A program made the translations under genes and the position numbers. A DNA stretch of 64,000 nucleotides, taken from positions 40,799 through 104,798 of the forward strand of contig CAZGJD010000002.1 of assembly GCA_964526385.1 (NCBI GenBank), read 5' to 3'. Below the pieces are notes generated by a model. The model saw nothing but the letters and a program-made list of their open reading frames with translations. It had not been told where the DNA came from and made no database searches. Positions 19,107 to 35,673 of this stretch are shown piece by piece. The stretch's first letter is position 1. Each line of letters begins with the position of its first letter. The DNA comes from an uncultured Candidatus Poseidoniales archaeon (lineage in GTDB: Archaea; Thermoplasmatota; Poseidoniia; Poseidoniales; Poseidoniaceae).

Positions 19107-22100
19107 ATGCGCAGAGAAGTCAGCGTTATGCTTCTTCTTCTTTGCTCGACCATTGTAGTCTCCTTTGACGCTAGTGCGATCAATATGGGTGGTGAAGACC
19201 CAGGGGTTAGTGACGTACCAAACTGGAGAGTCGGTGACAAGTGGATTTATTCGGGATCATTTGACCCCAGTGACTTGATTAGGGATGCGGGTGTTGATGC
19301 TACGGTTGGAACGATTACAGGGGATGCTACCACTATTGTAAGGGCTCTTAACACCATTAGCGTAGACGGAAAAGACACACTGGTCTACGAGGTTCGTCAA
19401 AGTGCAAATTTTGACAAAGGAGGAGTGCAACTCGAAAGTTATACTGGAAATCTTTTGATTGAATTCCAAGTCGACGAAGTCAGAAGAGTTTCAGACCTTG
19501 CAAAGATTTCATCAGACTTATCACTCGATGTAAAGTATGTTCCCTACGGAATCTCCTCTCTAACACAGGAAATAGCAGACATAACAATTTCCACAGATTA
19601 TGACCCAATGAGTGAGGCTTATGATTTCCCATTGAGAATCGGTGAAACCTGGAATACATCATACATCTCGTCTACTTCATGGTCAGGTGCATCCGATTAC
19701 ATCACTCCTTTTCCGCAGCCAACAAGCGGTGCTAACCACACTAACTATGAGATAACTGATGTGGGCAAGCCAGTTAGTGAAATTGGAGAGCAAATAGGGT
19801 ACTCGGGTTGTAACGCATCTTATCTGATAAAATCATACGACGATAATGGAACTGAAACTTCATTTGAATGGTTCTGCCCAGAGGTTAGAAGTTTTGCATG
19901 GCTTCATACTGAAGAGGACATTGGCCTAGTAATTGATTTTAGGCTGAAGCAATATTTGCCAGTAGAATCCAATGGGGTTGTGAGCAACGAAAACCCAGGT
20001 AACAGGAATATGAATTTGGATGTTGAGTTATCTACTGAAATCACTGCGCTAAACACACCGGTTGGAGTCTGGGCAAACGTTACGAATTCAGATGGAATGC
20101 CTCAACCCGGATTTGATGTAGAAATACGATATGAAAGCACGGGATTCTCTACAACAGGAACTACTTCATCCAACGGAAGTTTCTGGGCTGAAGTAAATGT
20201 TGGAAGTGCAACTGACACATCTGCTTCCTCAATTGATTGGTCAAGTCTAGGTATTATCGCAAAAAGCGGAAACATGTTAGGAGTCTCGACAATTACTCTC
20301 GATGAAAATATTGTAGGATTAGATATAGTCGCAAGCCTAGAAAGAGCTTCAATTCTCAGAAACAGATCTGGAGATTTATCAACTCTTAACGTCATATCTG
20401 GATTCGATGTACTACCTGGTGACGAATTAAACATTCAACTTCCAGTTTACAATAGAGGGATTACGGATTCGATGGCTAGTACCGTAACTATCACGCTTCC
20501 AGATGGTCAACAGATTGTTGACCAGTTACCAAGTTTGAAACTTTACGAACAGTATATTTTTGAAGTAAATTGGACGATTGATGGAAATAGTGGAATTGAT
20601 AATCAGTCAATTGAATGGGAAGTGGATTCATCTCTCAATCCTACCGACGCAAACAGCACTAATGATAAGGCTGAAATTCCTATTTTCATAGGAACAGCAC
20701 CTACTTTTGTAGCAAATAACATGATAGCTCTTACCAACGAAAAACTACTAATTGATGCTTCACAGAGTTTCGATGAAGACGGTGGAGAGGTTTGGTGCTT
20801 TTTCGACATAGAGTATGATGATGGAACATTTACCACTGCACACAAAAGAATACTCAGAAATGGTTGCTCCATCAATTGGACATGGATAGATGATGGAGTA
20901 TACGAAATTCTAGTTACTTTGACTGATGACGAAGGAGATTCAATCGATGAAAAAATTGAGGTTCAGATTCTGAATCGTGCTCCGAGTGTTTCAATTATTT
21001 CACAAAGAGATAAGGTGAAAGTAGAACACCCTGTAACTCTACATGTCTTTGCTAATGATTCTGATTCTGAAGAAGTATGGCCGGGGGTTGTCGACGTCTA
21101 CTGGCCAAATGTCAATTGCAAAGAAGGATATTACACACGAAAATGCACAACTACGGCTTGGGAGGAGGGCCTCCACACATTTACAGCGGTTGGTGTGGAT
21201 GACGATGGAAACGAAACATATGCTACAATTGATATCGAATTTACCAATATCGCACCTCACGATGTAGCAGTTACAATGTGGGATGAGAATGACAATCTCA
21301 TTCCCGCTGAAGGTCAAATGACTTGGCGAGTTGATGAAGATCAGGTCGTAGAACTCCAAGCAAGAGCCGAAGACTCAATCGATGATTTGTCAACTTTGAG
21401 GTATGAATGGTCGCTTGGCATTGAAACAGATGGTAGAACCTCAGCCATTCCTGCGGTTTGGCAAACTGCTGGAATGAAAACTATACTAGTCAAAGCAATA
21501 GACTCGCAGGACAGCGATAGTGGCTGGGTTGAAAGATGGGTCGATGTTCAAAATGTACAACCAATTATCGAGCCTTTACCGGAAATATTGCCAGTTGCAG
21601 AAGGTCAAACCGTCACTCTTAGTGGTAATGCTTGGGACACAGAATCAGATATGGAGGGCCTCATTATTTGTTGGGACATTGACCCAGGAATGGATTCCGA
21701 TGGAATCGGTTCTGCCGATGATGATTGTGACATCGTAGGAAGTGACCTCTCTTATTCGTGGCAGACCTCTGGAATACACAACATTGTTTTCCACGCTACA
21801 GATAATGATGGAGCTAGAAATTCTTCAACTGCGACTGTAGAAGTTCTGAACTTACCTCCTCTCGTAATAATGAATGTTCCATCAAATGCAATCGCCGGAG
21901 AAACTGTGATTTTGGACTCTTCTGCTACAATAGATTCAGCATTGGATATCGACTATCTAACAGTTGTATGGGATACAGATTGTAGAACAGATAGCGATGG
22001 AGACGGCATAACTGACAATGACGCTGATTTGGTTGGCCCTATTGTTGAACATGAATTCCCAAGAGCTGGAAAATTCACTGTGAAGGCAATAATTTGGGAT

Positions 22101-22493
22101 GAAGAAGTTATGAAACCGAGTAGTCAAACCGCTGTTGTAGAGGTTGATTCACCAGATATGACAGTCTTTGAGGAAGTCATGGCATCCGTGATTGGTAACG
22201 GAGATAATCCGTTCTTCCAATTACTTATGATATCAGGAATAATAGCGCTACTTTTGTTTGTGATCAACAAAACGAGACCTAAACCAAAATCTGCATGGGA
22301 TGATGAAGCGCCTGTTATAGAAGCACCTCTTACTGCACCTAGCATTGACGATTTTGAAAGCACTTCTACCGAAACACCACCACCAATTCCACCTGAAGGT
22401 TTACCTCAAGGTTGGACTGAAGAACAGTGGAATTATTACGGTCACCAGTATATTTCGATGAATGAATCCCAGAATAGTCAGTATGAAATGTGA
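19107..22493 (+). CDS. Giant surface protein with PKD/Ig-like repeats, a C-terminal TM anchor and a proline-rich cytoplasmic tail (paralogue 1)
   Basis: Signal peptide. Conserved N-terminal module (DVPNWRVGDKWIYS ... FEWFCPEVRSFAW). Repeated D-x-D-G / DDDG-containing beta-sandwich units. TM helix LLMISGIIALLLFVI. Tail ...PPPIPPEGLPQGWTEEQWNYYGHQY. Confidence 0.7.
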   Translation: MRREVSVMLLLLCSTIVVSFDASAINMGGEDPGVSDVPNWRVGDKWIYSGSFDPSDLIRDAGVDATVGTITGDATTIVRALNTISVDGKDTLVYEVRQSANFDKGGVQLESYTGNLLIEFQVDEVRRVSDLAKISSDLSLDVKYVPYGISSLTQEIADITISTDYDPMSEAYDFPLRIGETWNTSYISSTSWSGASDYITPFPQPTSGANHTNYEITDVGKPVSEIGEQIGYSGCNASYLIKSYDDNGTETSFEWFCPEVRSFAWLHTEEDIGLVIDFRLKQYLPVESNGVVSNENPGNRNMNLDVELSTEITALNTPVGVWANVTNSDGMPQPGFDVEIRYESTGFSTTGTTSSNGSFWAEVNVGSATDTSASSIDWSSLGIIAKSGNMLGVSTITLDENIVGLDIVASLERASILRNRSGDLSTLNVISGFDVLPGDELNIQLPVYNRGITDSMASTVTITLPDGQQIVDQLPSLKLYEQYIFEVNWTIDGNSGIDNQSIEWEVDSSLNPTDANSTNDKAEIPIFIGTAPTFVANNMIALTNEKLLIDASQSFDEDGGEVWCFFDIEYDDGTFTTAHKRILRNGCSINWTWIDDGVYEILVTLTDDEGDSIDEKIEVQILNRAPSVSIISQRDKVKVEHPVTLHVFANDSDSEEVWPGVVDVYWPNVNCKEGYYTRKCTTTAWEEGLHTFTAVGVDDDGNETYATIDIEFTNIAPHDVAVTMWDENDNLIPAEGQMTWRVDEDQVVELQARAEDSIDDLSTLRYEWSLGIETDGRTSAIPAVWQTAGMKTILVKAIDSQDSDSGWVERWVDVQNVQPIIEPLPEILPVAEGQTVTLSGNAWDTESDMEGLIICWDIDPGMDSDGIGSADDDCDIVGSDLSYSWQTSGIHNIVFHATDNDGARNSSTATVEVLNLPPLVIMNVPSNAIAGETVILDSSATIDSALDIDYLTVVWDTDCRTDSDGDGITDNDADLVGPIVEHEFPRAGKFTVKAIIWDEEVMKPSSQTAVVEVDSPDMTVFEEVMASVIGNGDNPFFQLLMISGIIALLLFVINKTRPKPKSAWDDEAPVIEAPLTAPSIDDFESTSTETPPPIPPEGLPQGWTEEQWNYYGHQYISMNESQNSQYEM

Positions 22494-22512
22494 GTTAGCA
22501 CTGCATAAAACG

Positions 22513-25500
22513 ATGCGAAGTACATTGGTTGCGGTAGCACTTGTTCTTCTGATGGCAAGCGGACCTGTTTCAATGGTCAACAACTTGCAACCAGAAAACA
22601 CAACCAAAAATTCTGCAACATCAACTGGTGTACATGATGTTCCCAATTGGAGAATCGGAGACAAGTGGGTTTACGAGACCAAATTTGATGTTGCACAATT
22701 AATCCAACAAGCAAACGTATCCGCTTCCCTAAATACGTTAACTGGCGACACGGTTATGGAAGTTGTTGACATAAAATTCGAAACAATATTAGGAGTAAAC
22801 ACACTTGTTTACGAGGTAGAAATCGGAGGAGATTTCACCTCTGGAAATAACGGAGCTAATTTCCAGGGTGTATCTGGGAGATTGGACATTCAATACGAAG
22901 GAACGGATATTTTACGAGTTTCAGATTTAGCTGTTTGGAAGTCTGATTTCTTCCTTGGGGTAGACTTCAAACCATTCAACTTGGGTTTACTGAATCAGGA
23001 CCTTGCAGACATAGATTTTGAATCCGTTTACGAACCGCCTCGAGAGAAATATGATTTCCCGCTTAGAAAAGGGGACCAATGGACAAGTAACTACAATACT
23101 GCTACAAATGTAAGCGGGCAATCAGATTATTTTAACGCTTCAGAATTCAATACTCCTTTTTTGGAGGATAATACTACCTACCAAGCCACTGATAATGGCA
23201 CTCCTTTAGAAGGCAGTGAAACAATTTCATATTCAGGATGCTCGGATTCAGTTAAGGTCGAATATTGGAATAACACGGGCACTCCAAGTGGATTTGAATG
23301 GTATTGTCCTGCTGTCAGATCATACGCATGGAGTAGAATAGTAAATACTGCAGGATTCCAAATCGATTGGCTTTTGAAGACATATACTCCTGCACAATCA
23401 ACCGGTTACATTGCTTCTTCTTCTCCCGGATACAGAAATACCGTAATTGAAGTCACACCTGAATTCGTAGCTACCCTTCCAAACGCTACCGAAGCCGTCT
23501 ATGGGCACATGTCTACCAACGCTGGACCAATTGTGAATAGAAACCTGCAGTTGAGGTACGAGGCACAATCAACTATTCTCAGTCTCACAACAAATAGTAG
23601 CGGGAAAGTGGGACCGGACATAAACGTCGGAGGAGATAGAGATAATTCTAACAGTTCTGATGATTGGACTAGCCACGGCGTGATAATATGGGACCCTGTA
23701 TCAAAGGTAATAGGGGCCTCAACTATAGTGATAGACCTATCAGTGGTTGGAGTTGACCTCGTCGCTAAGACCGATTCAATAATCATAAAACGAACGAGAG
23801 ATAATGACACGGTTCAGTTGTCTAGAGCAACCGGTTACAACGCTCTTCCTGGAGACACACTACAATTCTCGGTACCGGCCCAAAATAGGGGAGTTTTGAC
23901 TTCCCCCGCAACTGAAATGCAGGTCACTACTCCCGATGGGAATTCGATCAGAGGGAATCTTCCCGCATTATCACCATATTCAGAAGGGCGAATAGACGTT
24001 AACTGGACCGTGCCTGAAAATGCTCAAATTGGTAATCAGACTCTTTCTTTCTTTGTAGACCCGGATGCAAACGTAACCGCTGATGCAAATCGAAGTAATA
24101 ACGCTGCAAGCCTAGACATCTATATTGGACGTCTGCCTACTGCTATTGTTAATCTTACAGATGGGGTTTACACACATGAAAATGTGACCATCGATGCAAG
24201 TGGTTCTTTCGATAATGATGGAGGTGAAGTTGAATGTTTCTTTGAGGTTCAGGACGGTTTACGACTCCAGTACATAGACGCACCTACTTGCCAAGCTACC
24301 TGGAAATGGGCAGATGATGGAGAATGGAGTATTCTCGTTCGAGTTGTTGATGATGAATTGGATGAAGATATAATCACGGTATATGCGTCAATCTTGAATC
24401 GAAACCCATACGTGAATCTCACAGCAGATACAGTATCTATTCCTGCTGGTTCAAAAATAACTTTTGATGCATCGGACAGTGGAGACATAGACTCGATTTC
24501 ACCACCTGGCCAGGAAGTTGAAATCTCATGGCCTAACTCCTACTGTGACCAAGGATTGTATGGTCCTGAGTGTACTTTTACTGTAGAAGATGAAGGCATC
24601 TATGAGGTAGAAGTATTGGTCACAGATGATGATGGGGCCACGACTTCAGACTTCTGGACATACGAGGTAACTAACGTTCAGCCAACCCTTGGTGATATTG
24701 TCTTCATGATAGACGGAATACCTTACCTAAAAGACATAGATGGCACTTGGACAATCGACGAAGATATCGTAGCAGAATTGTCGATAATTGGTGACGATAC
24801 GCTTTCGGATGTAGATGATTTGATTATATCTTGGCATCCTGACATCGCTGATGTTAACTGGACAGAAACTACCTTTGGGCCCGAATCTGAAATTTCAGTA
24901 TCTTGGCCAACTTCAGGTTTAAAGACAATCAGAGTAATGGCAACGGATGATGATGGCGTAAGTAGCGAAGAAATACTTGGCTACGTAAGGGTCAACAATA
25001 TCGCTCCAGATTTGGGTGTTCTTCCTGCACAACAATCCTTATTCGAGGATGAAACATTGTACCTCAATTCTACTGCGATCGATTTTGCTGATGAAGAAGA
25101 CCTTCGTTTCTGTTGGGATATTTACAGTACAATAGACTCAGACGATAACGGAATATTAATCGATGACTGTGATATTGAAGGGCAGGAATTCGCATTCTCG
25201 TGGACAATAAGTGGAGTCAAAACCGTTACTGCGATTGTATGGGATGACGACAATACATCTGACATGTTTTCAATCGATGTCAATGTTGTTAATAGGCCAC
25301 CTGTAGCAAGCATAACGGTAATTGATGGAATTTATGAAATTACGGAAGGTGACTCTCTAACCTTTAGTGGCGTTGATTCAAGCGACACCTCAACTGATAA
25401 GGGCAAATTGATTTACATCTGGGATGACCCTGCAACAGTTGGTGCAACACAGGATGGATTCGGTTTAAATTACACAATGAAATTTGATAAACCCGGAACC

Positions 25501-26100
25501 TATTCAGTAAATCTGACCGTAACCGACGATGATGGGAAATCAAGCACTGCTACGGTCCAAATAGAGGTCAAAGCAAAACCAACAGAAAGCTTGTTTGGTC
25601 TGCAAAATTCAAGTGCAATAGGCTACGGAATGGGCTTCGTAATCATCATCTTGCTAGCCGTTTTGGCTCTAAGAAGGAGAGGAAATAGCGACGATTATTC
25701 AAAGAGCGAGACGGGTATGTGGGATAGCATGATTCAACCTCAAGTTGAAGCACCTGTCACACCGCCTCAACCAAGTTCATTCGGGGGAGGGCCACAAGTT
25801 CCTGCAATGGGGTTACCACCTGGATGGACAATGGAACAGTGGCAATATTATGGAGATCAATATTTACAACAGAATCCTCAACCAGCAACTTTCCAACAAT
25901 CGCCACCCCCTGTTAATCCGATGGCGTCACAATCTCAGCCAGTGGAAGCATATTCCCCGCCTGTTGTTCAACAGCCCGTGTACAACCAACAACCCTCAGA
26001 ATTGAGTCTTGATTCACTTCCACGGACGATGGTTCAAGAACCCCCACCTACTCCTGCCTCACAAGCCCTAGCAGATTTGTTAGATGACTTAGATTTGTGA
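22513..26100 (+). CDS. Giant surface protein with PKD/Ig-like repeats, a C-terminal TM anchor and a Pro/Gln-rich cytoplasmic tail (paralogue 2)
   Basis: Same architecture as the upstream gene: DVPNWRIGDKWVYE ... FEWYCPAVRSYAW, TM helix GMGFVIIILLAVLAL, and tail GLPPGWTMEQWQYYGDQY. The ATG at 22513 gives a signal peptide (MRSTLVAVALVLLMASGP) and removes the overlap with the upstream gene. The longest ORF starts at 22462. Confidence 0.7.
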   Translation: MRSTLVAVALVLLMASGPVSMVNNLQPENTTKNSATSTGVHDVPNWRIGDKWVYETKFDVAQLIQQANVSASLNTLTGDTVMEVVDIKFETILGVNTLVYEVEIGGDFTSGNNGANFQGVSGRLDIQYEGTDILRVSDLAVWKSDFFLGVDFKPFNLGLLNQDLADIDFESVYEPPREKYDFPLRKGDQWTSNYNTATNVSGQSDYFNASEFNTPFLEDNTTYQATDNGTPLEGSETISYSGCSDSVKVEYWNNTGTPSGFEWYCPAVRSYAWSRIVNTAGFQIDWLLKTYTPAQSTGYIASSSPGYRNTVIEVTPEFVATLPNATEAVYGHMSTNAGPIVNRNLQLRYEAQSTILSLTTNSSGKVGPDINVGGDRDNSNSSDDWTSHGVIIWDPVSKVIGASTIVIDLSVVGVDLVAKTDSIIIKRTRDNDTVQLSRATGYNALPGDTLQFSVPAQNRGVLTSPATEMQVTTPDGNSIRGNLPALSPYSEGRIDVNWTVPENAQIGNQTLSFFVDPDANVTADANRSNNAASLDIYIGRLPTAIVNLTDGVYTHENVTIDASGSFDNDGGEVECFFEVQDGLRLQYIDAPTCQATWKWADDGEWSILVRVVDDELDEDIITVYASILNRNPYVNLTADTVSIPAGSKITFDASDSGDIDSISPPGQEVEISWPNSYCDQGLYGPECTFTVEDEGIYEVEVLVTDDDGATTSDFWTYEVTNVQPTLGDIVFMIDGIPYLKDIDGTWTIDEDIVAELSIIGDDTLSDVDDLIISWHPDIADVNWTETTFGPESEISVSWPTSGLKTIRVMATDDDGVSSEEILGYVRVNNIAPDLGVLPAQQSLFEDETLYLNSTAIDFADEEDLRFCWDIYSTIDSDDNGILIDDCDIEGQEFAFSWTISGVKTVTAIVWDDDNTSDMFSIDVNVVNRPPVASITVIDGIYEITEGDSLTFSGVDSSDTSTDKGKLIYIWDDPATVGATQDGFGLNYTMKFDKPGTYSVNLTVTDDDGKSSTATVQIEVKAKPTESLFGLQNSSAIGYGMGFVIIILLAVLALRRRGNSDDYSKSETGMWDSMIQPQVEAPVTPPQPSSFGGGPQVPAMGLPPGWTMEQWQYYGDQYLQQNPQPATFQQSPPPVNPMASQSQPVEAYSPPVVQQPVYNQQPSELSLDSLPRTMVQEPPPTPASQALADLLDDLDL

Positions 26101-26111
26101 GAGTGAAAAAG

Positions 26112-26690
26112 ATGGGAACACTTTGGCAATTTTTTGGATTCCCCGACCCAGAGGGTACGGTCAATTCCGAACCAGCACCCAAGAAGAAAAAGAAAGAGTC
26201 AAGGCCTGAGCAAGGACAACAATTAACCTTAGTTTCACACGACGCAAACGCTGAAGTTTCTGAATCTGTGGAAGATTTACCTATTCCAGCGCCTGTTAGG
26301 AAAATGCCAGATTTACCCCCTAACTGGAATGGTTTGGTTACCCCGGACGGAATCGCATTCCATGACTTATCGAACTATAACTCCGAAGAAACCGGATTTC
26401 CAGACAGGGCATTGAGATACGTAAGGCCGAACAAAATGCACAGGCTACCAATTCGAGAGATAGAGGGTAGGGTTAGAAGAGGTGATACAATTATTGTCGA
26501 TTTGAACCCACTAATTCACATGGAAACTCAAACCAATGCATGCCGTAGAATATTACAGCAAATGGGATCAGAACTGGGAATTGCTATATTTGCATTGGAT
26601 GAAGAAGATAAGCTTCTACTTGTACCTGGAATAGATGTTACAATGGACGTATCAAAAAATGATTTAGGACTAGCTCCTCTTTTACTCTAA
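26112..26690 (+). CDS. sepF: SepF-like (DUF552) cell-division protein with an extended N-terminal linker
   Basis: The C-terminal core (IREIEGRVRRGDTIIVDLNPLI...CRRILQQMGSELGIAIFALDEEDKLLLVPG) follows the SepF pattern. The N-terminal MGTLWQFFGF resembles the amphipathic membrane-targeting helix. The ATG at 26112 is preferred over the GTG at 26097. Confidence 0.55.
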   Translation: MGTLWQFFGFPDPEGTVNSEPAPKKKKKESRPEQGQQLTLVSHDANAEVSESVEDLPIPAPVRKMPDLPPNWNGLVTPDGIAFHDLSNYNSEETGFPDRALRYVRPNKMHRLPIREIEGRVRRGDTIIVDLNPLIHMETQTNACRRILQQMGSELGIAIFALDEEDKLLLVPGIDVTMDVSKNDLGLAPLLL

Positions 26691-27302: not shown

Positions 27303-28022
27303 ATGGCCACGATTGAAAGAATTCCAACACATATTGACGGATTAGATGAAAATATGCAAGGAGGAATCCCCCAAGGGCACATATGCATTGTCGCAGGGCA
27401 ATCTGGTGCAATGAAATCCTCAGTTACGTTCTCACTTCTGTACAATGCTGTCCTTTACGGTGAGACAAGTGGCATATACGTAACTCTTGAACAAGGAAAA
27501 GATTCACTCAGGTCACATATGTCGAATATGGGAATGAACGTTGACGACCCAAGAGTAAGAAACAGAATCGCTATCATTGACCTATCAGATTTAAGGGTCC
27601 AACTCGATGAACAGGGAATGAGTAACAGGGTCGACTGGATGGGCCAATTAATCAAACAATTAACATCTTACAGACAGTCAATTGGATTTGAATTGCTTGT
27701 TTTCGATTCTCTTGGTGCGTTTTTCACCCTAACAAAAATGGAGAACCCTCGTGACGAAATTTTCAGACTATTCGAAGCATGTAGAAGATTAGAACTGACC
27801 TCGTTCTTCATTTGTGAAATGACTGGTGAGGATCACAAGCAATTCGGAGAATATGGGGTTGAAGATTACCTCTCTGACGGAGTGATGCACCTTACAATGG
27901 AAAGAGTTGGTGATGAAATTACGAGGAAAATTGGAGTAATAAAAATGAGACATACTCACCACAGGCTTGGTTACTCTCCACTTATGTGGAGTCCGTCTGA
28001 CCAAAGATTCAGTGTTAACTAG
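27303..28022 (+). CDS. KaiC/RecA-superfamily single-domain ATPase (COG0467-like)
   Basis: IPTHIDGLDENMQGGIPQGHICIVAGQSGAMKSS (atypical P-loop) and Walker B LLVFDSLGAFF. The ~240 aa size is typical of archaeal KaiC-like proteins. Confidence 0.65.
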   Translation: MATIERIPTHIDGLDENMQGGIPQGHICIVAGQSGAMKSSVTFSLLYNAVLYGETSGIYVTLEQGKDSLRSHMSNMGMNVDDPRVRNRIAIIDLSDLRVQLDEQGMSNRVDWMGQLIKQLTSYRQSIGFELLVFDSLGAFFTLTKMENPRDEIFRLFEACRRLELTSFFICEMTGEDHKQFGEYGVEDYLSDGVMHLTMERVGDEITRKIGVIKMRHTHHRLGYSPLMWSPSDQRFSVN

Positions 28023-29843
28023 TTACTCTACGGTCACAGACTTTGCAAGATTACGAGGTCTATCTACGTCGCATCCCCTTGACAATGCTGTTTCATAAGC
28101 AATCAATTGCGTTGGGATTACAGTAAGCAACGGGGTAAGTAACGAGTCGCAATCTGGTATAGGAATCGAAATATCAGCTTCTGATGCTATTTCATCTCCT
28201 TCAGTGTGTATCAGGATAATTTTTGCGCCTCTAGCCTTACACTCATGGACTGATGACATTGTCTTGTCCCTATGTTTGTCGTTTGGAGCAATTACTACTA
28301 CAGGGCTTCCTTCCTCGAGTAGAGCAATAGGCCCGTGCTTCATTTCCCCTGAAGGGTATGCAAGACATGGGATATATGCGATTTCCATTAGTTTCAAAGC
28401 ACCCTCACTCGCTACTGCGGAAGAGTGTCCTCTACCCAAAAATAGTACACTTTTTGCATCTTTTAGCAATTCTACTGCTTCGTTGATTGGCCCTTGGTTT
28501 GAAAGGTACGATTCCATCAAGTTAGGTATTTTCTCGAAATTTTTGACAATGCTTTGCCCTCTTTCTCTTGAGAAGGAGCGAGTCCTTCCAATTCTTATTG
28601 CAAAGAGAGTAAGTGCAGCCACCATGTTCGTGAAAGCTTTAGTTGACGCAACAGATTGCTCTGGACCGCTGTGAATGTAGACTCCTTGACCACAAAGCCG
28701 TGCAATGCTAGAACCGACCACGTTTACGATACCGTGAACCTCCCCTCCTTTGAGTTGTATTTCTTTGATTGCTGAAATTGTATCTGCAGTTTCACCTGAT
28801 TGTGAAACTGCGAAATGAATAGCGTTTGGATTGATGACTGGGTCCGTATAGCTAAATTCACTAGCTACGTGTTGTACTGCTGGTATCCTAGCTAGGCTCT
28901 CAATAGCCATCTGTCCTATCTTACACGCATTTAGTGCAGTGCCACAACCTATCAACCTAACGTGTGGTGCGGTTCTAAGACGAATTGGGTCGAGATTGAG
29001 ACCACCCAATTTGGAACTGCCATTCGCTAAATCTAATCGACCACTAATGCATCTCCTAATTGCTTCAGGTTGTTCATAAATTTCCTTTAGCATGTAATGC
29101 GGGTATCCCGCAATATCTGCATCACCCCAATCTTCTTCTATTACTGAAAGGGTTGTGTCAGAAACACCTCCTTCTAATCTAGAAATTTCAACTGATGTGG
29201 AGGTTACTGTTGCAAGGTCTCCATCTTCCAGATAATACACATTACTGGTATGTTGTGAAAGTGCATGAGGGTCTGAGGAAATAAAAGTCTCACCGTTCCC
29301 CCTGCCGATAATCAATGGAGACCCGTTTCTTGCGCATATTATTTCATCATGATCTTTGAACAAAACACATAATCCCCATGTTCCAGTAACTCTACGCAAA
29401 GACTGTCTAACAGACTCTAAGGGAGTTTGACCAGATTCGATTCCAATCGAGATCATGTGTACAAGAGCTTCCGAATCCGTATCTGACTTGAACTGATAGC
29501 CCTTTGACATCAGCCGATTCCTAATACCGGTCGCATTATTGATAATACCGTTGTGAACAAGAGCAATTTTTTCATTGCTACACAAGTGAGGATGGGCGTT
29601 CTCATTTGTTACCGAACCATGAGTGGCCCATCTAGTGTGGGCGATTCCTGATTTTCCCTCCAAATGATTTGGGAGAACTTTTGCTAGTTCAGAAACTTTT
29701 CCAACCTTCTTATGAACGTTGAGATAACCATTTTTCACAACTATACCTGATGAGTCATATCCCCTGTACTCAAGACGTCTTAGACCTTCTAGTAGCAAAG
29801 GTGCGGCTGACCGGTTACCAATAAATCCGAATATTCCACACAT
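28023..29843 (-). CDS. glmS: Glutamine--fructose-6-phosphate aminotransferase (isomerizing)
   Basis: N-terminal nucleophile MCGIFGF, two SIS domains, and the characteristic C-terminus LAKSVTVE. Confidence 0.95.
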   Translation of the reverse strand: MCGIFGFIGNRSAAPLLLEGLRRLEYRGYDSSGIVVKNGYLNVHKKVGKVSELAKVLPNHLEGKSGIAHTRWATHGSVTNENAHPHLCSNEKIALVHNGIINNATGIRNRLMSKGYQFKSDTDSEALVHMISIGIESGQTPLESVRQSLRRVTGTWGLCVLFKDHDEIICARNGSPLIIGRGNGETFISSDPHALSQHTSNVYYLEDGDLATVTSTSVEISRLEGGVSDTTLSVIEEDWGDADIAGYPHYMLKEIYEQPEAIRRCISGRLDLANGSSKLGGLNLDPIRLRTAPHVRLIGCGTALNACKIGQMAIESLARIPAVQHVASEFSYTDPVINPNAIHFAVSQSGETADTISAIKEIQLKGGEVHGIVNVVGSSIARLCGQGVYIHSGPEQSVASTKAFTNMVAALTLFAIRIGRTRSFSRERGQSIVKNFEKIPNLMESYLSNQGPINEAVELLKDAKSVLFLGRGHSSAVASEGALKLMEIAYIPCLAYPSGEMKHGPIALLEEGSPVVVIAPNDKHRDKTMSSVHECKARGAKIILIHTEGDEIASEADISIPIPDCDSLLTPLLTVIPTQLIAYETALSRGCDVDRPRNLAKSVTVE

Positions 29844-29852
29844 CTTCGTCCC

Positions 29853-32800
29853 TCAAAGTTTAATCTGTGCTGAACAAATTGGACAATTCATTGTCATGAT
29901 TGTAATATCTTTGATGGTAACACTTGCGCCACATTCTCCACACTTGCCGATTCGTTCTGGAATAGGCAGAGGTGGCAGAGGCATTTCTGCTGGACTTGGG
30001 GGTGCTGGCATGGGTAAATCGGGAGAGGAAATGACGATCTCTTCCTCTTCAACGATTGGCAGTAAGGCACCAGGGACTGGTAAATTCTTAGTTATATTTT
30101 CGAAGATTTCTTTTGCTTCTCTCTCTTCTTTTCTCTTCATTCGTCTTTCTAGACGCTTTGAGCCAGTGCCTGCTTCTACCTTAGCTTCCAGTTCTTCTGA
30201 TAGTGTCAATTCCTCAGGTTCTTCTTCGAGCACTGCTTCGCCAATTGTTACAACGAGGTCATCGCTCTCTTCTTCGAAATCTTCTTCGGTTTCAATTAAT
30301 AACTCAAGGTCACCACTCTCGGCGGAAATCTCAAGTTCCTCTTCATCTGACTGTCGTTTTAGTACAACAACCACGACCAGGAATAAACCGAAAAGGAATA
30401 TTCCGATTCCAGATAAGATCCATAGCTTTTCTACACCTTCTCCCGGAAGCGGAGCCAAAAGATAGTCTAAGAAGCCGTTCTTCTCATCAGATTCTTCCTT
30501 CTGACCCGCAAATAGGAGTTTCTTAGAAGTTACTTGCCCGGATGGGTCAACCATGATTATGAATGCATCGTAACCAATCGAACCTGCTCCTACGATGTAT
30601 CCTTCCGCAATGTTGTTTGAAAGACCGATTTCAGAATCTCCAGCGTTGTAACTACCGTACCTTGTGTATGGTTTTGCTCCTGTAGAGGAAACACCGATTT
30701 CATCATAGAGGAATTTTATTTCTTTGCTTGAAGTTTTGTACAGCACTATCTTCGTGGCACCTGGTGCAGAGATATTCACTGTATTGTCATTTGACCATAT
30801 CGTATTTTGAGCGGCAGCCATAACACTTGTCGAGCGACCAACTCCTTCGATCCATCCGGCGACTAATATGTCCTCCCCTTCGTGCCTCACTATCTCTAAA
30901 TCTTGATTTCTTGCATAATCACCTGCAGGAGCTTGGAAACCGAATGGTGTTTCTGAGATATCTCCGTGGGCGTAAAATAATCCGCTTCTTTCAATGCCGT
31001 TTCCATCATCTCTAATCTGCTGATATAGGAGGTGTATATCATCAGAACCAATTGCAACAGCAATTGCATTACCTTCACTTGGCTTGATATCGATATCGAT
31101 TAAGACATTCATTTTCGTGATCCACGCTGCAGACGAAGAATAGTCATCTTTGTACATCATGAAGACATTGGTGAGGTCATTCCATGACCCACCCGTTTTG
31201 ATGTCCCTATGATATCCTGCTAATACGATTTCATCACCTTTGGAGTGAAGGTCTAAGCCCCAGTATTTCCCCTCCGAGGATTTTAGTGGGTTAAGATGGG
31301 ATGAGACGCTACCCATCTCTCCCAACATGCCAATACTTGCCATACCGACATCGACCATTGTGTAACCAAGTTGGTCTTCGAATCTCTTAGTCCACGCCAT
31401 CTGAACTCTTTCATCATCTCTTAGGGTAAATGCAAATTCGCCAGCCCAATTTTCTTCAACGAGTGTGTCGCTTGGAGTTGAGCCACTTTGAGTAAGGGTT
31501 CTTGCATGGAGTTCCCCGTTGATTGTTGTGAACAACAAACCACCTCCATCAGATGAATCGCCATCCTTTACAGGAATTCCAACAAATCCTAGAATTACCT
31601 CGCCATCAGACAACTGAATTGTACTCTTGGAGGAAACACTGAAATCATCAACGATTACAGTAAACCTGTATTCTGAATATTGTGCTTCAACTCCTGTTCC
31701 TTCCAAGACTGCTCTATATCTGTAGATACCAGTTTCGTCTTTACTGTCGGAAAATTGTGCTTTTGCATAACCAGATGAAATCGATGAACCTGGAACTACC
31801 ATTAATGTTCTAGACTCCATAGGTACCCAATTATCTTCCCATGAATAAAGAGACATCCTGATATTAGTCGCATCATTTTGCCCCAGATTATCGACTCTGA
31901 CATTCATAGTGAACGAATTAATACTATCTCCAAAGTTTGGAGTTGGGATTAATGGAGAAATCGTTACAGCGCTAGTCATAAATCTAAGCATAGGATCTAT
32001 TGGACGTTCTGTAATCATAAACGTAAATGTATACTCATTGTCGGATTGGTCATCATTCGTTACCCCGTTTGGGTCTATTTGTAGTGTTACAGTATGCTCA
32101 CCGGGTTCGGTAGCCCACCACCATAATTTGACCTGAATAGTTTCACCCTCTGAGATTTGAGGTAGTTTACCTTCGCTTGGATAAGTGTTTGATGTTGAAC
32201 CCGGTGCATCTAATCTAAGATGCAAGTCGGAGGCATCAGCGTCGCCGGTATTTACTACTCCAAAATGAACTTCCAAAATTGTGCCAGCCATAGCGGATTG
32301 GGCTGGTAAGTCTTGGTCGTAAACCTGAACAGTTCCTTGGAACCTAAGCTCTGGCGCAGCAGGTAAATTGTCAACCGTAAATGTCCTTCTGGTAATGTCA
32401 GATTCTGTTCCGCTTTCGTTTACCAATCGAATAGAAATTTTGTGTGAACCATCTGGCACTTCTGTTGAATCCCATGTAAATGACCAATCTTGTGGACCAA
32501 AATCCTCCTTATCAAAAGAATACGCATTAAGCCATTCTCCGCTGTTAACTCTGTAAATCAAGTAATCTGGATTTACTCCTTGCGCAGTTCCGCTAAATGT
32601 GGTGTAACCACTTATTATTGAACCGGAGGAAGGAGACCCAAAGTTTGCCACCATTTTTCCGATATTGCCGTATCGAATATCGCTTGATACTAAGTCATCG
32701 ACACCTAATGCCTTGACCTCTATGACGACATTCAATTCCTCGCTGTCATACCACTCGTCCTTGATTAGAACATCTAGATACCAATAGTCATCTTCTCCAC

Positions 32801-34664
32801 CAGCGGTAGTCCAGTCCAATAGGACAACTTCTTCGAAATCTTCCAAGTACTGGACAATTCGGACATTTACATCATTCCAAGGGCCCGTGTTTTCTAATAG
32901 GTTTCCTTCGATTCTGAGTAGTTCATCGGTTACAAACCATGAACCGTTATCTGGAGAGGTTATTTCAACACCCGCTGAGGTATCATTGTCGGGCGGGAGA
33001 ATTACTCCCCCATCTCCGGTTAAGGGAGAACAATTTCTGTCTAGGACAGTATCTACTGCACACGATGCATCAACTAATCCAAATCCCCACTTATCATTCC
33101 AGCGATTGGATACATCCGGTTCGGTTGGGTTTCCCCTCTTCTCGCTTGAATTACGTAGAATGTCTTTGATTTCTTCAGGTGTCAGAGATGAGTCGGCTTG
33201 AAGCATTAAGGCTACAACTCCCGATACCAAAGGTGTAGCCATCGATGTTCCATCCTTTGATTCATAGCCGTCTTCAGCCATTGGTCTAGGAGTTCCAGGT
33301 AGCGAGCCACCAGTTGCCGCTGAGGCTGAAAACATACCGCTTCCGTATGAGGTTACGTCAGGCTTCAATTCATCCCAATCATCGTTATCACTGTCACTTT
33401 CCCTTGGCCCATAATTTGAGTAAGAGGCGACGAAATCATCTGTTCTGTTAATTGAATCAGCATCATCTATCGCACCAACAGTTATTGCGCCATCAGCACT
33501 ACCTGGTGAAGCAATTCGATTGCGTCCATCATTACCAGCAGCTACAACGCAGGTGATCCCGTTTTCTGTAGCGTTATTGACCAATCTTGCTTCAGCACCC
33601 GTTCCGTTGTCACCGCTGTCGTTAGGGTCGAATACGTTCCCAATAGAGCCAAATGACATTTGCCCTATTTGGATGCCTTTTGCTCCGTCACCCCAATTAG
33701 TGTCTCTGTTGTTAATCATCCACTGGATTCCATTTAGTGAGTTTTGAGAATTTGTTCCGCCACTATCTGTTAGGACTTTTACATCAACAAGGTAAGCTCC
33801 AGGAGCGCCTCCGATGTGAACTCTTGATGAATCCCCTGTCCCCAGAGCGATTCCCGCAACGTGGGTCCCGTGCCCCTGACCATCATCAGGGTCTTGTGAA
33901 CCATCCGGATTTGATGCTTGAGAGGTAGCATCGAAACCTGCAACCCATTTCTGATCGTCGTATGAATTTGGATCTAAATCTGGTGCATCGTCTTGGTCGT
34001 CAAAATCATTTAGCGACCTGTGCTCGTTGTCGACACCGCTATCCAATACTGCAATGACTATTCCTTCTCCAGTGTATCCTCTATCGTAAACGGTTCCAGA
34101 ATATACCTCAGATGGCTGGATTCTTGTTGCTGGATTTGCGTTTGCGAGGAAAGGAACCATGACATTCTGCATCTCAACTACAACGACAGATTCGATTGCG
34201 TGAATCTCCCAAAGAGCACTAACTGGGACGTGGTCAACCACTATTGAATCGATTGAATCCATAATTTGAAACCATGAACCTTCGGCTTCCCATCCGTGTT
34301 TCTTCAATACTGCAAGCAATTCCTCAACCTCAACTTCGGTTGGATGCCAAGCAAAGTCTACGACGATAGCAACCGTTTTTCGTCCATCTGAACCGATTAT
34401 TGAGGTGGTTGAAATTGATTCATGGGCCCCTGAAATTACTACTTCTAATCGGTCATCCATACCGTCAAAATTAACATCTGGGCCGTAACTAAACCACCAG
34501 CCATAATCCTCGGACGCAAATCTCCCATCCCTTGATGGAAGCCGGTCTTTGACATCCTCGATTAAGTCGTTTTCAATTTGGCTTGCGGTTGCAAGTGAAC
34601 TCATGGTTGAGAGCAGAAATATCGCAACCAATGCAATCGATTTCACACTCTTCACATAACTCAC
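29853..34664 (-). CDS. Very large membrane-anchored subtilisin-like serine protease (peptidase S8) with CARDB/Ig-like domains, an acidic cytoplasmic tail and a C-terminal zinc ribbon
   Basis: Signal peptide. Catalytic triad contexts VLDSGVD, HGTHVAG and GTSMATP. CARDB-like NTGDADA / NLGQNDA segments. TM helix LWILSGIGIFLFGLFLVVVVVL. Glu-rich tail. The terminal sequence is CGECGASVTIKDITIMTMNCPICSAQIKL. The start codon is GTG. Confidence 0.85.
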   Translation of the reverse strand: MSYVKSVKSIALVAIFLLSTMSSLATASQIENDLIEDVKDRLPSRDGRFASEDYGWWFSYGPDVNFDGMDDRLEVVISGAHESISTTSIIGSDGRKTVAIVVDFAWHPTEVEVEELLAVLKKHGWEAEGSWFQIMDSIDSIVVDHVPVSALWEIHAIESVVVVEMQNVMVPFLANANPATRIQPSEVYSGTVYDRGYTGEGIVIAVLDSGVDNEHRSLNDFDDQDDAPDLDPNSYDDQKWVAGFDATSQASNPDGSQDPDDGQGHGTHVAGIALGTGDSSRVHIGGAPGAYLVDVKVLTDSGGTNSQNSLNGIQWMINNRDTNWGDGAKGIQIGQMSFGSIGNVFDPNDSGDNGTGAEARLVNNATENGITCVVAAGNDGRNRIASPGSADGAITVGAIDDADSINRTDDFVASYSNYGPRESDSDNDDWDELKPDVTSYGSGMFSASAATGGSLPGTPRPMAEDGYESKDGTSMATPLVSGVVALMLQADSSLTPEEIKDILRNSSEKRGNPTEPDVSNRWNDKWGFGLVDASCAVDTVLDRNCSPLTGDGGVILPPDNDTSAGVEITSPDNGSWFVTDELLRIEGNLLENTGPWNDVNVRIVQYLEDFEEVVLLDWTTAGGEDDYWYLDVLIKDEWYDSEELNVVIEVKALGVDDLVSSDIRYGNIGKMVANFGSPSSGSIISGYTTFSGTAQGVNPDYLIYRVNSGEWLNAYSFDKEDFGPQDWSFTWDSTEVPDGSHKISIRLVNESGTESDITRRTFTVDNLPAAPELRFQGTVQVYDQDLPAQSAMAGTILEVHFGVVNTGDADASDLHLRLDAPGSTSNTYPSEGKLPQISEGETIQVKLWWWATEPGEHTVTLQIDPNGVTNDDQSDNEYTFTFMITERPIDPMLRFMTSAVTISPLIPTPNFGDSINSFTMNVRVDNLGQNDATNIRMSLYSWEDNWVPMESRTLMVVPGSSISSGYAKAQFSDSKDETGIYRYRAVLEGTGVEAQYSEYRFTVIVDDFSVSSKSTIQLSDGEVILGFVGIPVKDGDSSDGGGLLFTTINGELHARTLTQSGSTPSDTLVEENWAGEFAFTLRDDERVQMAWTKRFEDQLGYTMVDVGMASIGMLGEMGSVSSHLNPLKSSEGKYWGLDLHSKGDEIVLAGYHRDIKTGGSWNDLTNVFMMYKDDYSSSAAWITKMNVLIDIDIKPSEGNAIAVAIGSDDIHLLYQQIRDDGNGIERSGLFYAHGDISETPFGFQAPAGDYARNQDLEIVRHEGEDILVAGWIEGVGRSTSVMAAAQNTIWSNDNTVNISAPGATKIVLYKTSSKEIKFLYDEIGVSSTGAKPYTRYGSYNAGDSEIGLSNNIAEGYIVGAGSIGYDAFIIMVDPSGQVTSKKLLFAGQKEESDEKNGFLDYLLAPLPGEGVEKLWILSGIGIFLFGLFLVVVVVLKRQSDEEELEISAESGDLELLIETEEDFEEESDDLVVTIGEAVLEEEPEELTLSEELEAKVEAGTGSKRLERRMKRKEEREAKEIFENITKNLPVPGALLPIVEEEEIVISSPDLPMPAPPSPAEMPLPPLPIPERIGKCGECGASVTIKDITIMTMNCPICSAQIKL

Positions 34665-35619: not shown

Positions 35620-35673
35620 GTATAGGCGGAGGAGTAGGTGCTTTGAAGCCAATGCGGTGTTTGGAGTGGAATA

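What the first reader, a model, noticed from the sequence alone, without database searches (positions are those of the whole stretch)
19107..26100. Tandem giant paralogous surface proteins sharing a conserved cytoplasmic tail motif
Two adjacent genes (1128 and about 1195 aa) share the same architecture. Each has a signal peptide and a conserved N-terminal module (DVPNWR[VI]GDKW[IV]Y ... FEW[FY]CP[EA]VRS[FY]AW). Each then has many PKD/Ig-like units, one TM helix and a Pro-rich cytoplasmic tail. The tails are otherwise divergent, yet both contain GLP(Q/P)GWT(E/M)EQW(N/Q)YYG(H/D)QY (nt 22398-22451 and 25810-25863). Conservation of an intracellular motif in extracellular adhesin-like proteins implies a shared cytoplasmic partner for sorting, anchoring or signalling.
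Basis: seen in the sequence. Interest (0 to 1): 0.65.

Follow-up and report, generated by a model that had tools for sequence, protein, structure and literature searches.

The report
Archaeal surface proteins' shared inner tail tag
Two neighbouring giant surface proteins of a Marine Group II ocean archaeon end, inside the cell, in a roughly 25-residue proline/tryptophan module that I found in no database or paper. Almost every genome of that order puts the same module on many unrelated surface proteins, and the second protein also carries an acidic end-peptide and always sits directly before a very divergent SepF cell-division gene.

Summary
P0001 (19107-22493) and P0002 (22462/22513-26100) are 35% identical type I membrane proteins: signal peptide, unknown N-module, CARDB, five PKD-like repeats, one TM helix and a Pro-rich tail. 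The motif lies at 22398-22451 and 25810-25863.

The motif is not private to this pair. It is the core of a module, PP[LIV]PxxGLPxGWT[M]EQWx[YHW]YGxx[YW]L.
- Eight proteins in this genome carry it, from seven unrelated ectodomain families.
- 254 of 256 sampled Poseidoniales genomes have it; 0 of 45 sister-order genomes do.
- It sits 34-140 residues after the TM helix, on the positive-inside side.
- In one type II protein it lies between a SAP domain and the TM helix.
- AlphaFold2 models it as ordered (core pLDDT 90-92).
- Pfam and NCBIfam do not match it, and I found no paper on it.

P0002 orthologues also end in DD[LF]D[LF]-COOH, which resembles the part of the FtsZ tail that SepF grips. The next gene (26112-26690) is the order's single, highly diverged SepF.

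Best reading: the tails are tethered cytoplasmic docking handles. The partner of the Trp module is unidentified, and SepF is the candidate partner of the acidic end. No binding has been tested. Earlier notes of this scan reached similar conclusions on other genomes.

The parts
19107..22493 (+). P0001: 1128-aa type I surface protein. It has a signal peptide (aa 1-25), an N-module of unknown fold (about aa 35-290), weak CarboxypepD_reg-like and CARDB-like Ig domains, 5 PKD-like repeats, a TM helix and a 75-aa tail.
20691..22151 (+). Five tandem PKD-like repeats of P0001 (aa 529-1015)
   Evidence: Pfam PKD_4 E 2e-15; iterated HMM
22209..22265 (+). TM helix of P0001 (aa 1035-1053, PFFQLLMISGIIALLLFVI), followed by NKTRPKPK
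22380..22454 (+). Trp-rich cytoplasmic tail module of P0001 (aa 1092-1116, PPIPPEGLPQGWTEEQWNYYGHQYI), 12 residues from the C-terminus
22462..26100 (+). P0002: 1212-aa paralogue (1195 aa if it starts at Met18, nt 22513) with the same architecture. Its tail is 142 aa and carries two conserved elements.
24127..25572 (+). Five tandem PKD-like repeats of P0002 (aa 556-1037)
   Evidence: Pfam PKD_4 E 7e-19
25615..25671 (+). TM helix of P0002 (aa 1052-1070), followed by RRRGN
25792..25866 (+). Trp-rich cytoplasmic tail module of P0002 (aa 1111-1135, PQVPAMGLPPGWTMEQWQYYGDQYL)
26077..26097 (+). Extreme C-terminal acidic peptide LLDDLDL-COOH of P0002. It is conserved in all P0002 orthologues of the family and resembles the SepF-binding part of FtsZ tails.
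   Evidence: PMC8178401
26112..26690 (+). P0003: the divergent SepF orthologue (192 aa from the ATG; an alternative GTG at 26097 overlaps the P0002 stop). It has an N-terminal amphipathic MGTLWQFFGF, a basic patch, a linker, a conserved FHDL segment and a SepF-fold core at about aa 100-172.

Best explanation
Shown.
- P0001 and P0002 are an old tandem duplicate of a Poseidoniales-specific, membrane-anchored PKD/CARDB surface protein. There are two copies in the window's own family and one in the other large family.
- Each tail ends in a lineage-wide, roughly 25-residue module on a 34-140-residue Pro/Ala/Glu-rich tether. The module is a proline stretch (PP[LIV]P..GLP) followed by an amphipathic Trp/Tyr helix (GWT.EQW..YG..[YW]L).
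- The module lies on the cytoplasmic side of the membrane and is attached to many unrelated surface proteins.

Inferred.
- The module is a small, self-ordered docking handle. Through it much of the surface proteome is held by one conserved, still unidentified cytoplasmic partner. The proline stretch and the aromatic face of the helix would pack on each other. The invariant polar residues Thr, Glu/Asp and Gln would be left for recognition.
- P0002 has a second handle. Its acidic, hydrophobic C-terminal peptide LLDDLDL mimics the LDDFI / DLDV segment of FtsZ tails that lies in the alpha2/beta3 groove of SepF. The co-transcribed, membrane-binding SepF orthologue encoded immediately downstream would bind it. 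That would couple this envelope protein to the FtsZ/SepF division apparatus.
For: Discrete family. Exactly 8 ORFs in this genome match the tail HMM, with a sharp E-value gap. Only P0001 and P0002 are related in their ectodomains. The other carriers include an S8 subtilase with CARDB and a beta-propeller protein.

Distribution.
- At least 120 loci in the GTDB species genomes match the pattern, nearly all labelled Poseidoniales.
- 254 of 256 order genomes match, against 0 of 45 in the sister order.
- By HMM there are 8-12 copies per genome in the window's own family and 1-7 in the other large family.
- 657 of 1.84 billion representative proteins match, almost always at their C-terminus.

Conservation. 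Positions that the search pattern did not fix are also conserved: P-10 118/129, P-7 126/129, G-4 126/129, L-3 121/129, [YW]+13 123/129.

Topology. The positive-inside rule holds in 113 of 122 carriers and is never reversed. L047 has the order SAP domain, module, TM helix, ectodomain.

Fold of the module. The AlphaFold2 model from an 81-sequence alignment has mean pLDDT 82, with 90-92 over residues 11-30 including the non-helical proline part, and a helix at 22-40.

SepF.
- The core of P0003 is modelled at pLDDT about 88-90. The top 17 Foldseek PDB hits are all SepF, with target TM-scores 0.64-0.82.
- It is single-copy in 250 of 256 order genomes.
- Members in the other large family reach PF04472 weakly at the same coordinates, while the sister order has a canonical SepF.

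Linkage and the acidic end.
- In all 20 sampled genomes of the own family, a DD[LF]D[LF]-stop lies 3-30 nt before the SepF gene.
- Genera of the other family end this protein in EDDLDLDF, DPWEFDL or SEEE.
- The same pentapeptide is conserved at the C-terminus of two further unrelated protein families.
- The SepF groove binds LDDFI / DLDV (PMC8178401).
Against: - No binding was tested, and no partner for the Trp module was found.
- SepF adjacency concerns one carrier only.
- One genus of the other family (g22) keeps the SepF linkage but has lost the Trp module from that protein. The two elements are therefore separable, and SepF is probably not the Trp-module receptor.
- Archaeal FtsZ tails centre on a GID motif that LLDDLDL lacks.
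- Any order-specific gene shares the phyletic pattern, so co-occurrence is weak evidence.
- Sequence-level homology of P0003 to SepF is weak: there is no Pfam hit in this genome, and hhalign against sister-order SepF gives probability 3.4%.
- I could not inspect the coordinates of the AlphaFold2 model, so the packing of the proline stretch on the helix is inferred from pLDDT alone.
- Foldseek found no analogue for the 41-residue model.
Confidence: 0.6

Rival explanations
1. The Trp module has no protein partner. It is an interfacial membrane anchor: the amphipathic Trp/Tyr helix folds back onto the inner leaflet, as Trp-rich membrane-proximal regions do. This would tune the tilt, clustering or lipid environment of surface proteins.
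For: The helix TMEQWQYYGHQWL places M, W, Y, W and L on one face (logo; helix 22-40). Trp and Tyr favour membrane interfaces (established knowledge). No partner was found.
Against: Generic lipid binding would not need the invariant polar residues T, E/D, Q and G, nor the near-invariant PP[LIV]P..GLP stretch. The module hangs on a 34-140-residue acidic, Pro-rich tether rather than next to the membrane. It contains no basic residues to pair with anionic lipids.
Confidence: 0.13
2. The module is a homotypic or heterotypic association domain. Tails of different surface proteins bind each other and co-cluster the ectoproteins into a coat, without a separate receptor.
For: The same module sits on 8-12 surface proteins per cell in the window's own family. 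The ordered mini-fold has an aromatic face. Mini-proteins with a polyproline stretch plus a helix, such as the pancreatic-polypeptide fold, dimerise (from memory).
Against: Reduced genomes keep only one carrier (genus g16), where heterotypic clustering has no point. No oligomer was modelled.
Confidence: 0.1
3. The module is a transient sorting, quality-control or turnover signal. A cytoplasmic chaperone, insertase-associated factor or protease would read it, rather than a structural anchor holding it.
For: It is a proteome-wide tag near the C-terminus of exported proteins, and so formally resembles prokaryotic sorting tags. A rhomboid protease gene lies 9 kb away in the window.
Against: Known sorting tags have the order motif, TM helix, basic tail and are cut outside the membrane. 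Here the order is TM helix, tether, module, and NCBIfam models do not match. The module also works N-terminal to a TM helix (L047) and with 35-81 residues after it, so a free C-terminus is not needed. Rhomboid genes are not linked to carriers in general.
Confidence: 0.1
4. The shared motif is a relic of recent duplication or gene conversion between the two neighbouring genes, or it lies outside the cell. These are the reader's own refutation scenarios.
For: The genes are adjacent paralogues.
Against: The motif is on seven unrelated families and in 254 of 256 order genomes. The synonymous sites of the two copies differ. The tandem pair itself is present in 27 of 30 genomes of the family. The positive-inside rule and L047 place the module inside.
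Confidence: 0.02

Closest known systems
FtsZ C-terminal peptide on its disordered linker, docking on SepF (M. smithii 7AL2, C. glutamicum 6SAT/6SCP; PMC8178401)
   Same: Both are short conserved peptides at the end of a long disordered cytoplasmic tether. P0002's LLDDLDL resembles the groove-binding LDDFI / DLDV segment. The SepF orthologue is encoded immediately downstream.
   Different: Here the carrier is a 1200-aa transmembrane surface protein, not a tubulin homologue. It has no GID motif. Binding is untested. The Trp module has no counterpart in FtsZ.
Proteome-wide C-terminal sorting tags of prokaryotic surface proteins (PGF-CTERM/archaeosortase, PEP-CTERM/exosortase, LPXTG/sortase, GlyGly-CTERM/rhombosortase)
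   Same: A lineage-specific tag near the C-terminus is shared by many unrelated surface proteins in one genome.
   Different: Those tags are a motif, then a TM helix, then a basic tail, and they are processed at the outer face. This module lies 34-140 residues after the TM helix on the cytoplasmic side. It also occurs N-terminal to a TM helix, and no NCBIfam model matches it.
Cytoplasmic tail motifs of eukaryotic type I receptors (for example integrin NPxY, YxxPhi) and the NWETF pentapeptide of bacterial chemoreceptors
   Same: Short tail peptides on flexible tethers recruit cytoplasmic adaptors to membrane proteins.
   Different: The sequences are unrelated and the organism is an archaeon. 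This module is longer (about 25 residues) and is predicted to be ordered on its own.
WW domain (PF00397) and mini-proteins with a polyproline stretch plus a helix (pancreatic-polypeptide fold, Trp-cage)
   Same: LPxGW is how a WW domain starts. A proline stretch followed by an aromatic helix is the design of the PP-fold (from memory).
   Different: There is no Pfam WW hit at E <= 10. The model is helical, not a three-stranded sheet. No structural match was found. The resemblance to the PP-fold is an analogy only.
Archaeal SepF (PF04472; 3ZIE, 3ZIG, 7AL1)
   Same: P0003 has the SepF core fold, an N-terminal amphipathic helix and a linker. It is single-copy and replaces the canonical SepF that the sister order has.
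   Different: Pfam does not recognise the sequence in this family. The protein is 60-80 residues longer than the sister-order SepF. It is always fused in an operon to a giant surface-protein gene.

Membership tests
PKD domain (PF18911 / PF00801) | Match to the Pfam model above the gathering score | tested here: met
   PKD_4 scores 56.9 and 68.1 bits against a cut-off of 27. There are five repeats per protein by iterated HMM.
CARDB (PF07705) | Match above the gathering score (22.7 bits) | tested here: inconclusive
   P0002 scores 28.1 bits (met). P0001 scores 19.6 bits (below the cut-off), but it aligns to the same region of P0002.
SepF (PF04472), for P0003 | Sequence match to the SepF HMM | tested here: not met
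   There is no hit at E <= 10 in the protein or in the whole genome. Orthologues in the other large family reach E 3.5e-6 to 5e-3 at the same loci.
SepF (PF04472), for P0003 | SepF core fold (beta-alpha-beta-alpha-beta-beta sandwich) | tested here: met
   AlphaFold2 core pLDDT is about 88-90. The top 17 Foldseek PDB hits are all SepF, probability 1.00, target TM-score 0.64-0.82.
SepF (PF04472), for P0003 | N-terminal amphipathic membrane-targeting helix plus a flexible linker | tested here: met
   M(A/G)NLWQFFGLPDPE is invariant in 9 orthologues. The model has a helix at 4-8 and a low-pLDDT linker at 16-63. Membrane binding itself was not tested.
SepF (PF04472), for P0003 | Binds the FtsZ C-terminal domain | not testable with these tools
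   FtsZ1, FtsZ2 and a third tubulin-like gene are present. No complex prediction tool was available.
WW domain (PF00397), for the Trp module | Match to the model; three-stranded sheet with two Trp about 20-22 residues apart and a terminal Pro | tested here: not met
   No Pfam hit at E <= 10. The model is a single helix. The Trp residues are 5 apart.
Archaeosortase/exosortase-type C-terminal sorting tags (PGF-CTERM and others) | Signature motif immediately followed by a TM helix and a basic cluster at the extreme C-terminus; match to an NCBIfam/TIGRFAM model | tested here: not met
   The order here is TM helix, tether, module. There is no NCBIfam hit at E <= 1.
SepF-binding C-terminal peptide (FtsZ-CTD type), for LLDDLDL | Acidic/hydrophobic peptide at the end of a disordered tail, resembling LDDFI / DLDV | tested here: met
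   literature. This is a resemblance only.
SepF-binding C-terminal peptide (FtsZ-CTD type), for LLDDLDL | Near-invariant archaeal GID motif; demonstrated binding in the SepF groove | tested here: not met
   GID is absent from P0002 and its orthologues. Binding is not testable here.

The most novel reading that the evidence does not exclude
Poseidoniales run a eukaryote-like 'tail code'. Disordered cytoplasmic tails of type I (and some type II) surface proteins carry separable short modules that plug the surface proteome into distinct internal machines.
- The Trp module is one such module.
- DD[LF]D[LF]-COOH is a second.
- C4 zinc ribbons on other ectoproteins are a third.

The DDLDL tag would be an FtsZ-tail mimic bound by the co-evolved SepF. 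That would give these apparently wall-less archaea a direct transmembrane link between the envelope and the division ring. The Trp module would bind a still unknown internal scaffold. The 936-aa coiled-coil rod encoded next to one carrier is a candidate.
Probability: 0.25. Interest if true: 0.85.

Novelty: new variant of a known kind. Interest (0 to 1): 0.7.

Why it matters
Poseidoniales are among the most abundant archaea of the surface ocean and have never been cultured. How their envelope is built, held and divided is unknown.

A single, nearly invariant cytoplasmic module on most large surface proteins points to an internal system that organises the surface proteome. That kind of organisation is familiar from eukaryotic receptors and is hardly known in prokaryotes.

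The obligate gene linkage of one carrier to a strongly diverged SepF, together with an FtsZ-tail-like end peptide, gives a concrete hypothesis for envelope-divisome coupling in archaea. It can be tested with peptides and recombinant protein, without a culture. The module is also a clean sequence marker for Poseidoniales surface proteins and for mis-binned contigs.

Tried and rejected
- Pfam and NCBIfam on the tails found nothing.
- PDB sequence searches with P0001 and with the P0003 profile gave no usable hit.
- Foldseek of the 41-residue tail model found nothing.
- The IMG/VR viral contigs have no match to the motif pattern, so there is no sign that viruses copy the tag.
- Weak HMM hits in sister-order genus g27 turned out to be 30-aa Pro-rich ORFs that match only the proline half. 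I rejected them.
- hhalign of the P0003 family against sister-order SepF aligns the expected alpha1-beta2-alpha2 segment, but with probability only 3.4%.
- The sister-order protein upstream of SepF shares only PKD-level similarity with P0002, so orthology is not claimed.
- The sigma-70 promoter and terminator scan was uninformative for an archaeon, with counts at or below the shuffle level.
- No archaeal 16S was found in the assembly. Taxonomy rests on the record titles of related loci.
- Literature searches found no description: Poseidoniales plus motif, Marine Group II plus 'cytoplasmic tail', 'GWTMEQW', and Poseidoniales plus SepF.
- WW-domain and sorting-tag membership were considered and rejected (see the membership tests).
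Full report
OBSERVATION

The two ORFs are 19107-22493 (P0001, 1128 aa) and 22462-26100 (P0002, 1212 aa, or 1195 aa from Met18). BLASTP aligns them end to end at 35% identity, E = 0.

Pfam finds PKD_4 in both proteins. CARDB is above the cut-off in P0002 and just below it in P0001, and there is a weak CarboxypepD_reg-like hit. An HMM iterated from the Pfam-detected repeat finds five PKD-like repeats in each protein, aa 529-1015 and 556-1037. The N-module (about aa 35-290) matches nothing in Pfam, NCBIfam or PDB sequences.

Each protein has an N-terminal signal-type hydrophobic segment and one TM helix, aa 1035-1053 and 1052-1070. Basic residues follow each helix. N-x-S/T sequons are enriched in the ectodomains: 14 and 23, against shuffle means of 9.5 and 11. 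The tails are almost free of them.

THE MOTIF IS A LINEAGE-WIDE MODULE

A regular expression and then an HMM were run over all six-frame ORFs of the 1.66-Mb assembly. They find exactly eight carriers, with E from 1e-11 to 4e-17; the next hit has E = 0.24.

All eight carriers have the same layout:
- a signal peptide;
- a large ectodomain;
- one TM helix;
- a Pro/Ala/Glu-rich tether;
- the module 8-16 residues from the C-terminus. P0002 is the exception, with 81 residues after it.

Only P0001 and P0002 are related in their ectodomains. The other carriers include an S8 subtilase with CARDB, a beta-propeller protein with Ca-binding-type repeats, and proteins with no Pfam match.

I back-translated P.GWT.[DE]QW..YG and searched the GTDB species genomes. 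Nearly all are labelled Poseidoniales, Poseidoniaceae or Thalassarchaeaceae. Three contigs carry bacterial labels but encode typical Poseidoniales carrier proteins, so they look mis-binned.

Distribution across the class:
- 254 of 256 genomes of the order match, against 0 of 45 in the sister order. The reversed-pattern control gave 0 everywhere.
- With the HMM, the window's own family has 8-12 copies per genome (30 of 30 genomes). Record titles suggest this family is Poseidoniaceae.
- The other large family has 1-7 copies (16 of 16 genomes).
- The sister order has none. Its marginal hits are 30-aa Pro-rich ORFs.
- Among 1.84 billion representative proteins, 657 match at E <= 1e-3 and 419 at E <= 1e-10, almost always at their C-terminal end.
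- IMG/VR viral contigs have none.

Positions that the search pattern did not fix are nearly invariant too: P-10, P-9, [LIV]-8, P-7, G-4, L-3, M+3, [YW]+13 and L+14. The consensus is PP[LIV]PxxGLPxGWT[M]EQWx[YHW]YGxx[YW]L. Third codon positions vary freely among copies, so selection acts on the peptide.

TOPOLOGY

In 122 carriers, K+R averages 3.03 in the 15 residues after the TM helix and 0.47 before it. After exceeds before in 113 carriers and is never lower. The distance from the TM helix to the module is 34-140 residues, median 75.

L047 encodes the reverse arrangement: a SAP domain (PF02037, E 5e-9), then the module, an acidic linker, a TM helix and a large C-terminal domain. The orthologue in this genome (C13:32234-34264) lacks the module. 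The module is therefore portable and stays on the cytoplasmic side whichever end it is on.

STRUCTURE OF THE MODULE

AlphaFold2 on an 81-sequence tail alignment gives mean pLDDT 82.4 and pTM 0.55. Residues 11-30 score 90-92, and they include the non-helical proline stretch. A helix runs from the Thr of GWT to the end.

On that helix M, W, Y, W and L fall on one face, with the invariant Gly in its centre. Thr, Glu/Asp and Gln are invariant and polar. I infer a mini-fold in which the proline stretch packs on the aromatic face, leaving T, E and Q for recognition. Foldseek found no analogue.

THE NEIGHBOUR IS SEPF, AND P0002 HAS A SECOND TAG

The next ORF is P0003 (26112-26690). An alternative GTG start at 26097 overlaps the P0002 stop. 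It has no Pfam hit.

Eight orthologues lie directly after P0002 orthologues in the fetched loci. The family shares M(A/G)NLWQFFGLPDPE, a basic patch, a variable linker, a conserved FHDL segment and a conserved core.

AlphaFold2 models the core (aa 100-172) as beta-alpha-beta-alpha-beta-beta with pLDDT about 88-90. The top 17 Foldseek PDB hits are all SepF, from A. fulgidus, P. furiosus, M. smithii, B. subtilis and C. glutamicum, with probability 1.00 and target TM-scores 0.64-0.82.

The family is present in 250 of 256 order genomes, in single copy in nearly all of them, and in 0 of 45 sister-order genomes. Pfam SepF (PF04472) behaves as follows:
- it finds nothing in this genome;
- it finds nothing in 30 of 30 genomes of the window's own family;
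- it gives weak hits in the other large family at the same coordinates as P0003 orthologues;
- it finds a canonical 116-135-aa SepF in most sister-order genomes.

P0003 is therefore the diverged SepF orthologue of the order. FtsZ1, FtsZ2 and a third tubulin-like gene are present.

All P0002 orthologues continue 35-81 residues past the Trp module and end in ...LLDD[LF]D[LF]-COOH. In all 20 sampled genomes of the own family, such an end lies 3-30 nt before sepF. The N-module search shows two tandem copies in 27 of 30 genomes of the own family, one full-length copy in the other large family, and none in the sister order.

In the other large family the single copy also precedes sepF. Its C-terminus varies by genus:
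- g21 ends in EDDLDLDF;
- g13 ends in DPWEFDL;
- g22 ends in ...SEEE and has no Trp module.

The acidic end is thus the constant of the SepF-linked protein, and the Trp module is separable from it.

DDLDL-COOH also ends two further proteins of this genome, and their orthologues keep it at 30-66% overall identity:
- a 796-aa type I membrane protein (C3:17372-19762);
- a roughly 230-aa cytosolic CxxC protein (C5:14104-14808).

Pende et al. (PMC8178401) report that the SepF groove between alpha2 and beta3 binds the LDDFI (M. smithii) or DLDV (C. glutamicum) part of the FtsZ tail through Asp-Arg/Lys pairs. LLDDLDL resembles both, and helix alpha2 of P0003 keeps an invariant Arg. Archaeal FtsZ tails, however, centre on a GID motif, which is absent here.

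In the sister order, canonical SepF also follows a PKD/CARDB type I protein, but that protein's tail is only about 7 residues long. It shares only PKD-level similarity with P0002. This hints that the linkage is old and that the tail elaboration and the SepF divergence arose together in Poseidoniales. It is not proven.

INTERPRETATION

Shown:
- the architecture of the two proteins;
- the module, its order-wide distribution and its cytoplasmic side;
- the SepF fold, orthology and linkage of P0003;
- the conserved acidic end of P0002.

Inferred:
- the Trp module is a docking handle for one conserved cytoplasmic partner (confidence about 0.6);
- the acidic end is a SepF ligand (about 0.4).

Rivals are an interfacial membrane anchor, self-association, and a transient sorting or turnover signal. 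A duplication relic and an extracellular location are excluded.

One candidate scaffold was noticed but not tested. It is a 936-aa charged coiled-coil protein encoded directly upstream of the beta-propeller carrier.

In the most reduced genus (g16) the retained carrier is the orthologue of C22:9528-12977. The Trp module is therefore not specific to the SepF-linked protein.

RELATION TO EARLIER NOTES OF THIS SCAN

After I had found SepF and the acidic tag, look-ups showed that agents working on other Poseidoniales genomes had described the same Trp module and the same SepF linkage. These are unchecked AI notes on related genomes. My tests here agree with them.

This report adds:
- genome counts for the order against the sister order;
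- the type II (SAP) case;
- positive-inside statistics;
- the three conserved DDLDL families;
- the variants of the acidic end by genus;
- the sister-order synteny.

Noticed in passing
window 29853-34664 (-): A 1603-aa S8 subtilase with CARDB. It has a TM helix, a roughly 170-aa acidic cytoplasmic tail and a C-terminal C4 zinc ribbon (CGECG...CPIC). This is a third kind of conserved cytoplasmic tail element on an ectoprotein.
   Followed up: partly
L047:1141-3468 (+); own genome C13:32234-34264 (+): A type II membrane protein with an N-terminal SAP domain (PF02037, E 5e-9), then the Trp module, then the TM helix and an ectodomain. The orthologue in this genome lacks the module, so the module is gained and lost as a cassette.
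   Followed up: partly
own genome C3:17372-19762 (+) and C5:14104-14808 (+): Two further unrelated proteins end in DDLDL-COOH. One is a 796-aa type I membrane protein and the other a roughly 230-aa cytosolic CxxC..CxxC protein. Their orthologues in other genera keep the tag. Neither has a Pfam match.
   Followed up: partly
own genome C12:40026-42836 (-): A 936-aa highly charged coiled-coil protein (E 16%, R 9%, K 7%) with a Pro/Val-rich acidic tail. It is encoded 20 nt upstream of the beta-propeller Trp-module carrier C12:37514-40006. It is a possible internal scaffold.
   Followed up: no
own genome C4:106286-107344 (-); L038, L065: The smallest carrier (about 350 aa) has a CX3CH string (C[AG]GSCH) just after its signal peptide. 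Its orthologues carry a variant module, DDPRRPxGWTDEQWxHYGP, without the PP[LIV]P..GLP stretch.
   Followed up: no
L124, L125, L126 (sister-order genomes G003, G083, G039): A canonical 116-118-aa SepF lies directly downstream of a PKD/CARDB type I membrane protein whose cytoplasmic tail is only about 7 residues long. The sequence before the SepF core has NFLDLRRW, which resembles the FHDLG segment of P0003.
   Followed up: partly
L038, L041, L053: Contigs in MAGs labelled Flammeovirgaceae, Verrucomicrobiales and Yoonia encode typical Poseidoniales Trp-module proteins. They are probably mis-binned archaeal contigs.
   Followed up: no
own genome C4:~28073-28555 (+), C8:32436-32915 (-), C9:54933-55394 (-): FtsZ1 ends ...LRALKSRNIEFVN and FtsZ2 ends ...DQLGDLLRLTRTKVKSTGSVGFQRFD. 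Neither shows the GID motif reported as near-invariant in archaeal FtsZ tails. A third, shorter tubulin-family gene is present.
   Followed up: no
L175, L177 (genomes G166, G014, genus g16): In the most reduced genus, only one or two Trp-module carriers remain. The constant one is the orthologue of own C22:9528-12977, a 1145-aa protein with a WCGPC thioredoxin-like string near its N-terminus.
   Followed up: partly
window 27303-28022 (+) and 34726-35688 (-): A KaiC/RadA-like ATPase and a rhomboid protease gene flank the region. No evidence links them to the tails.
   Followed up: no
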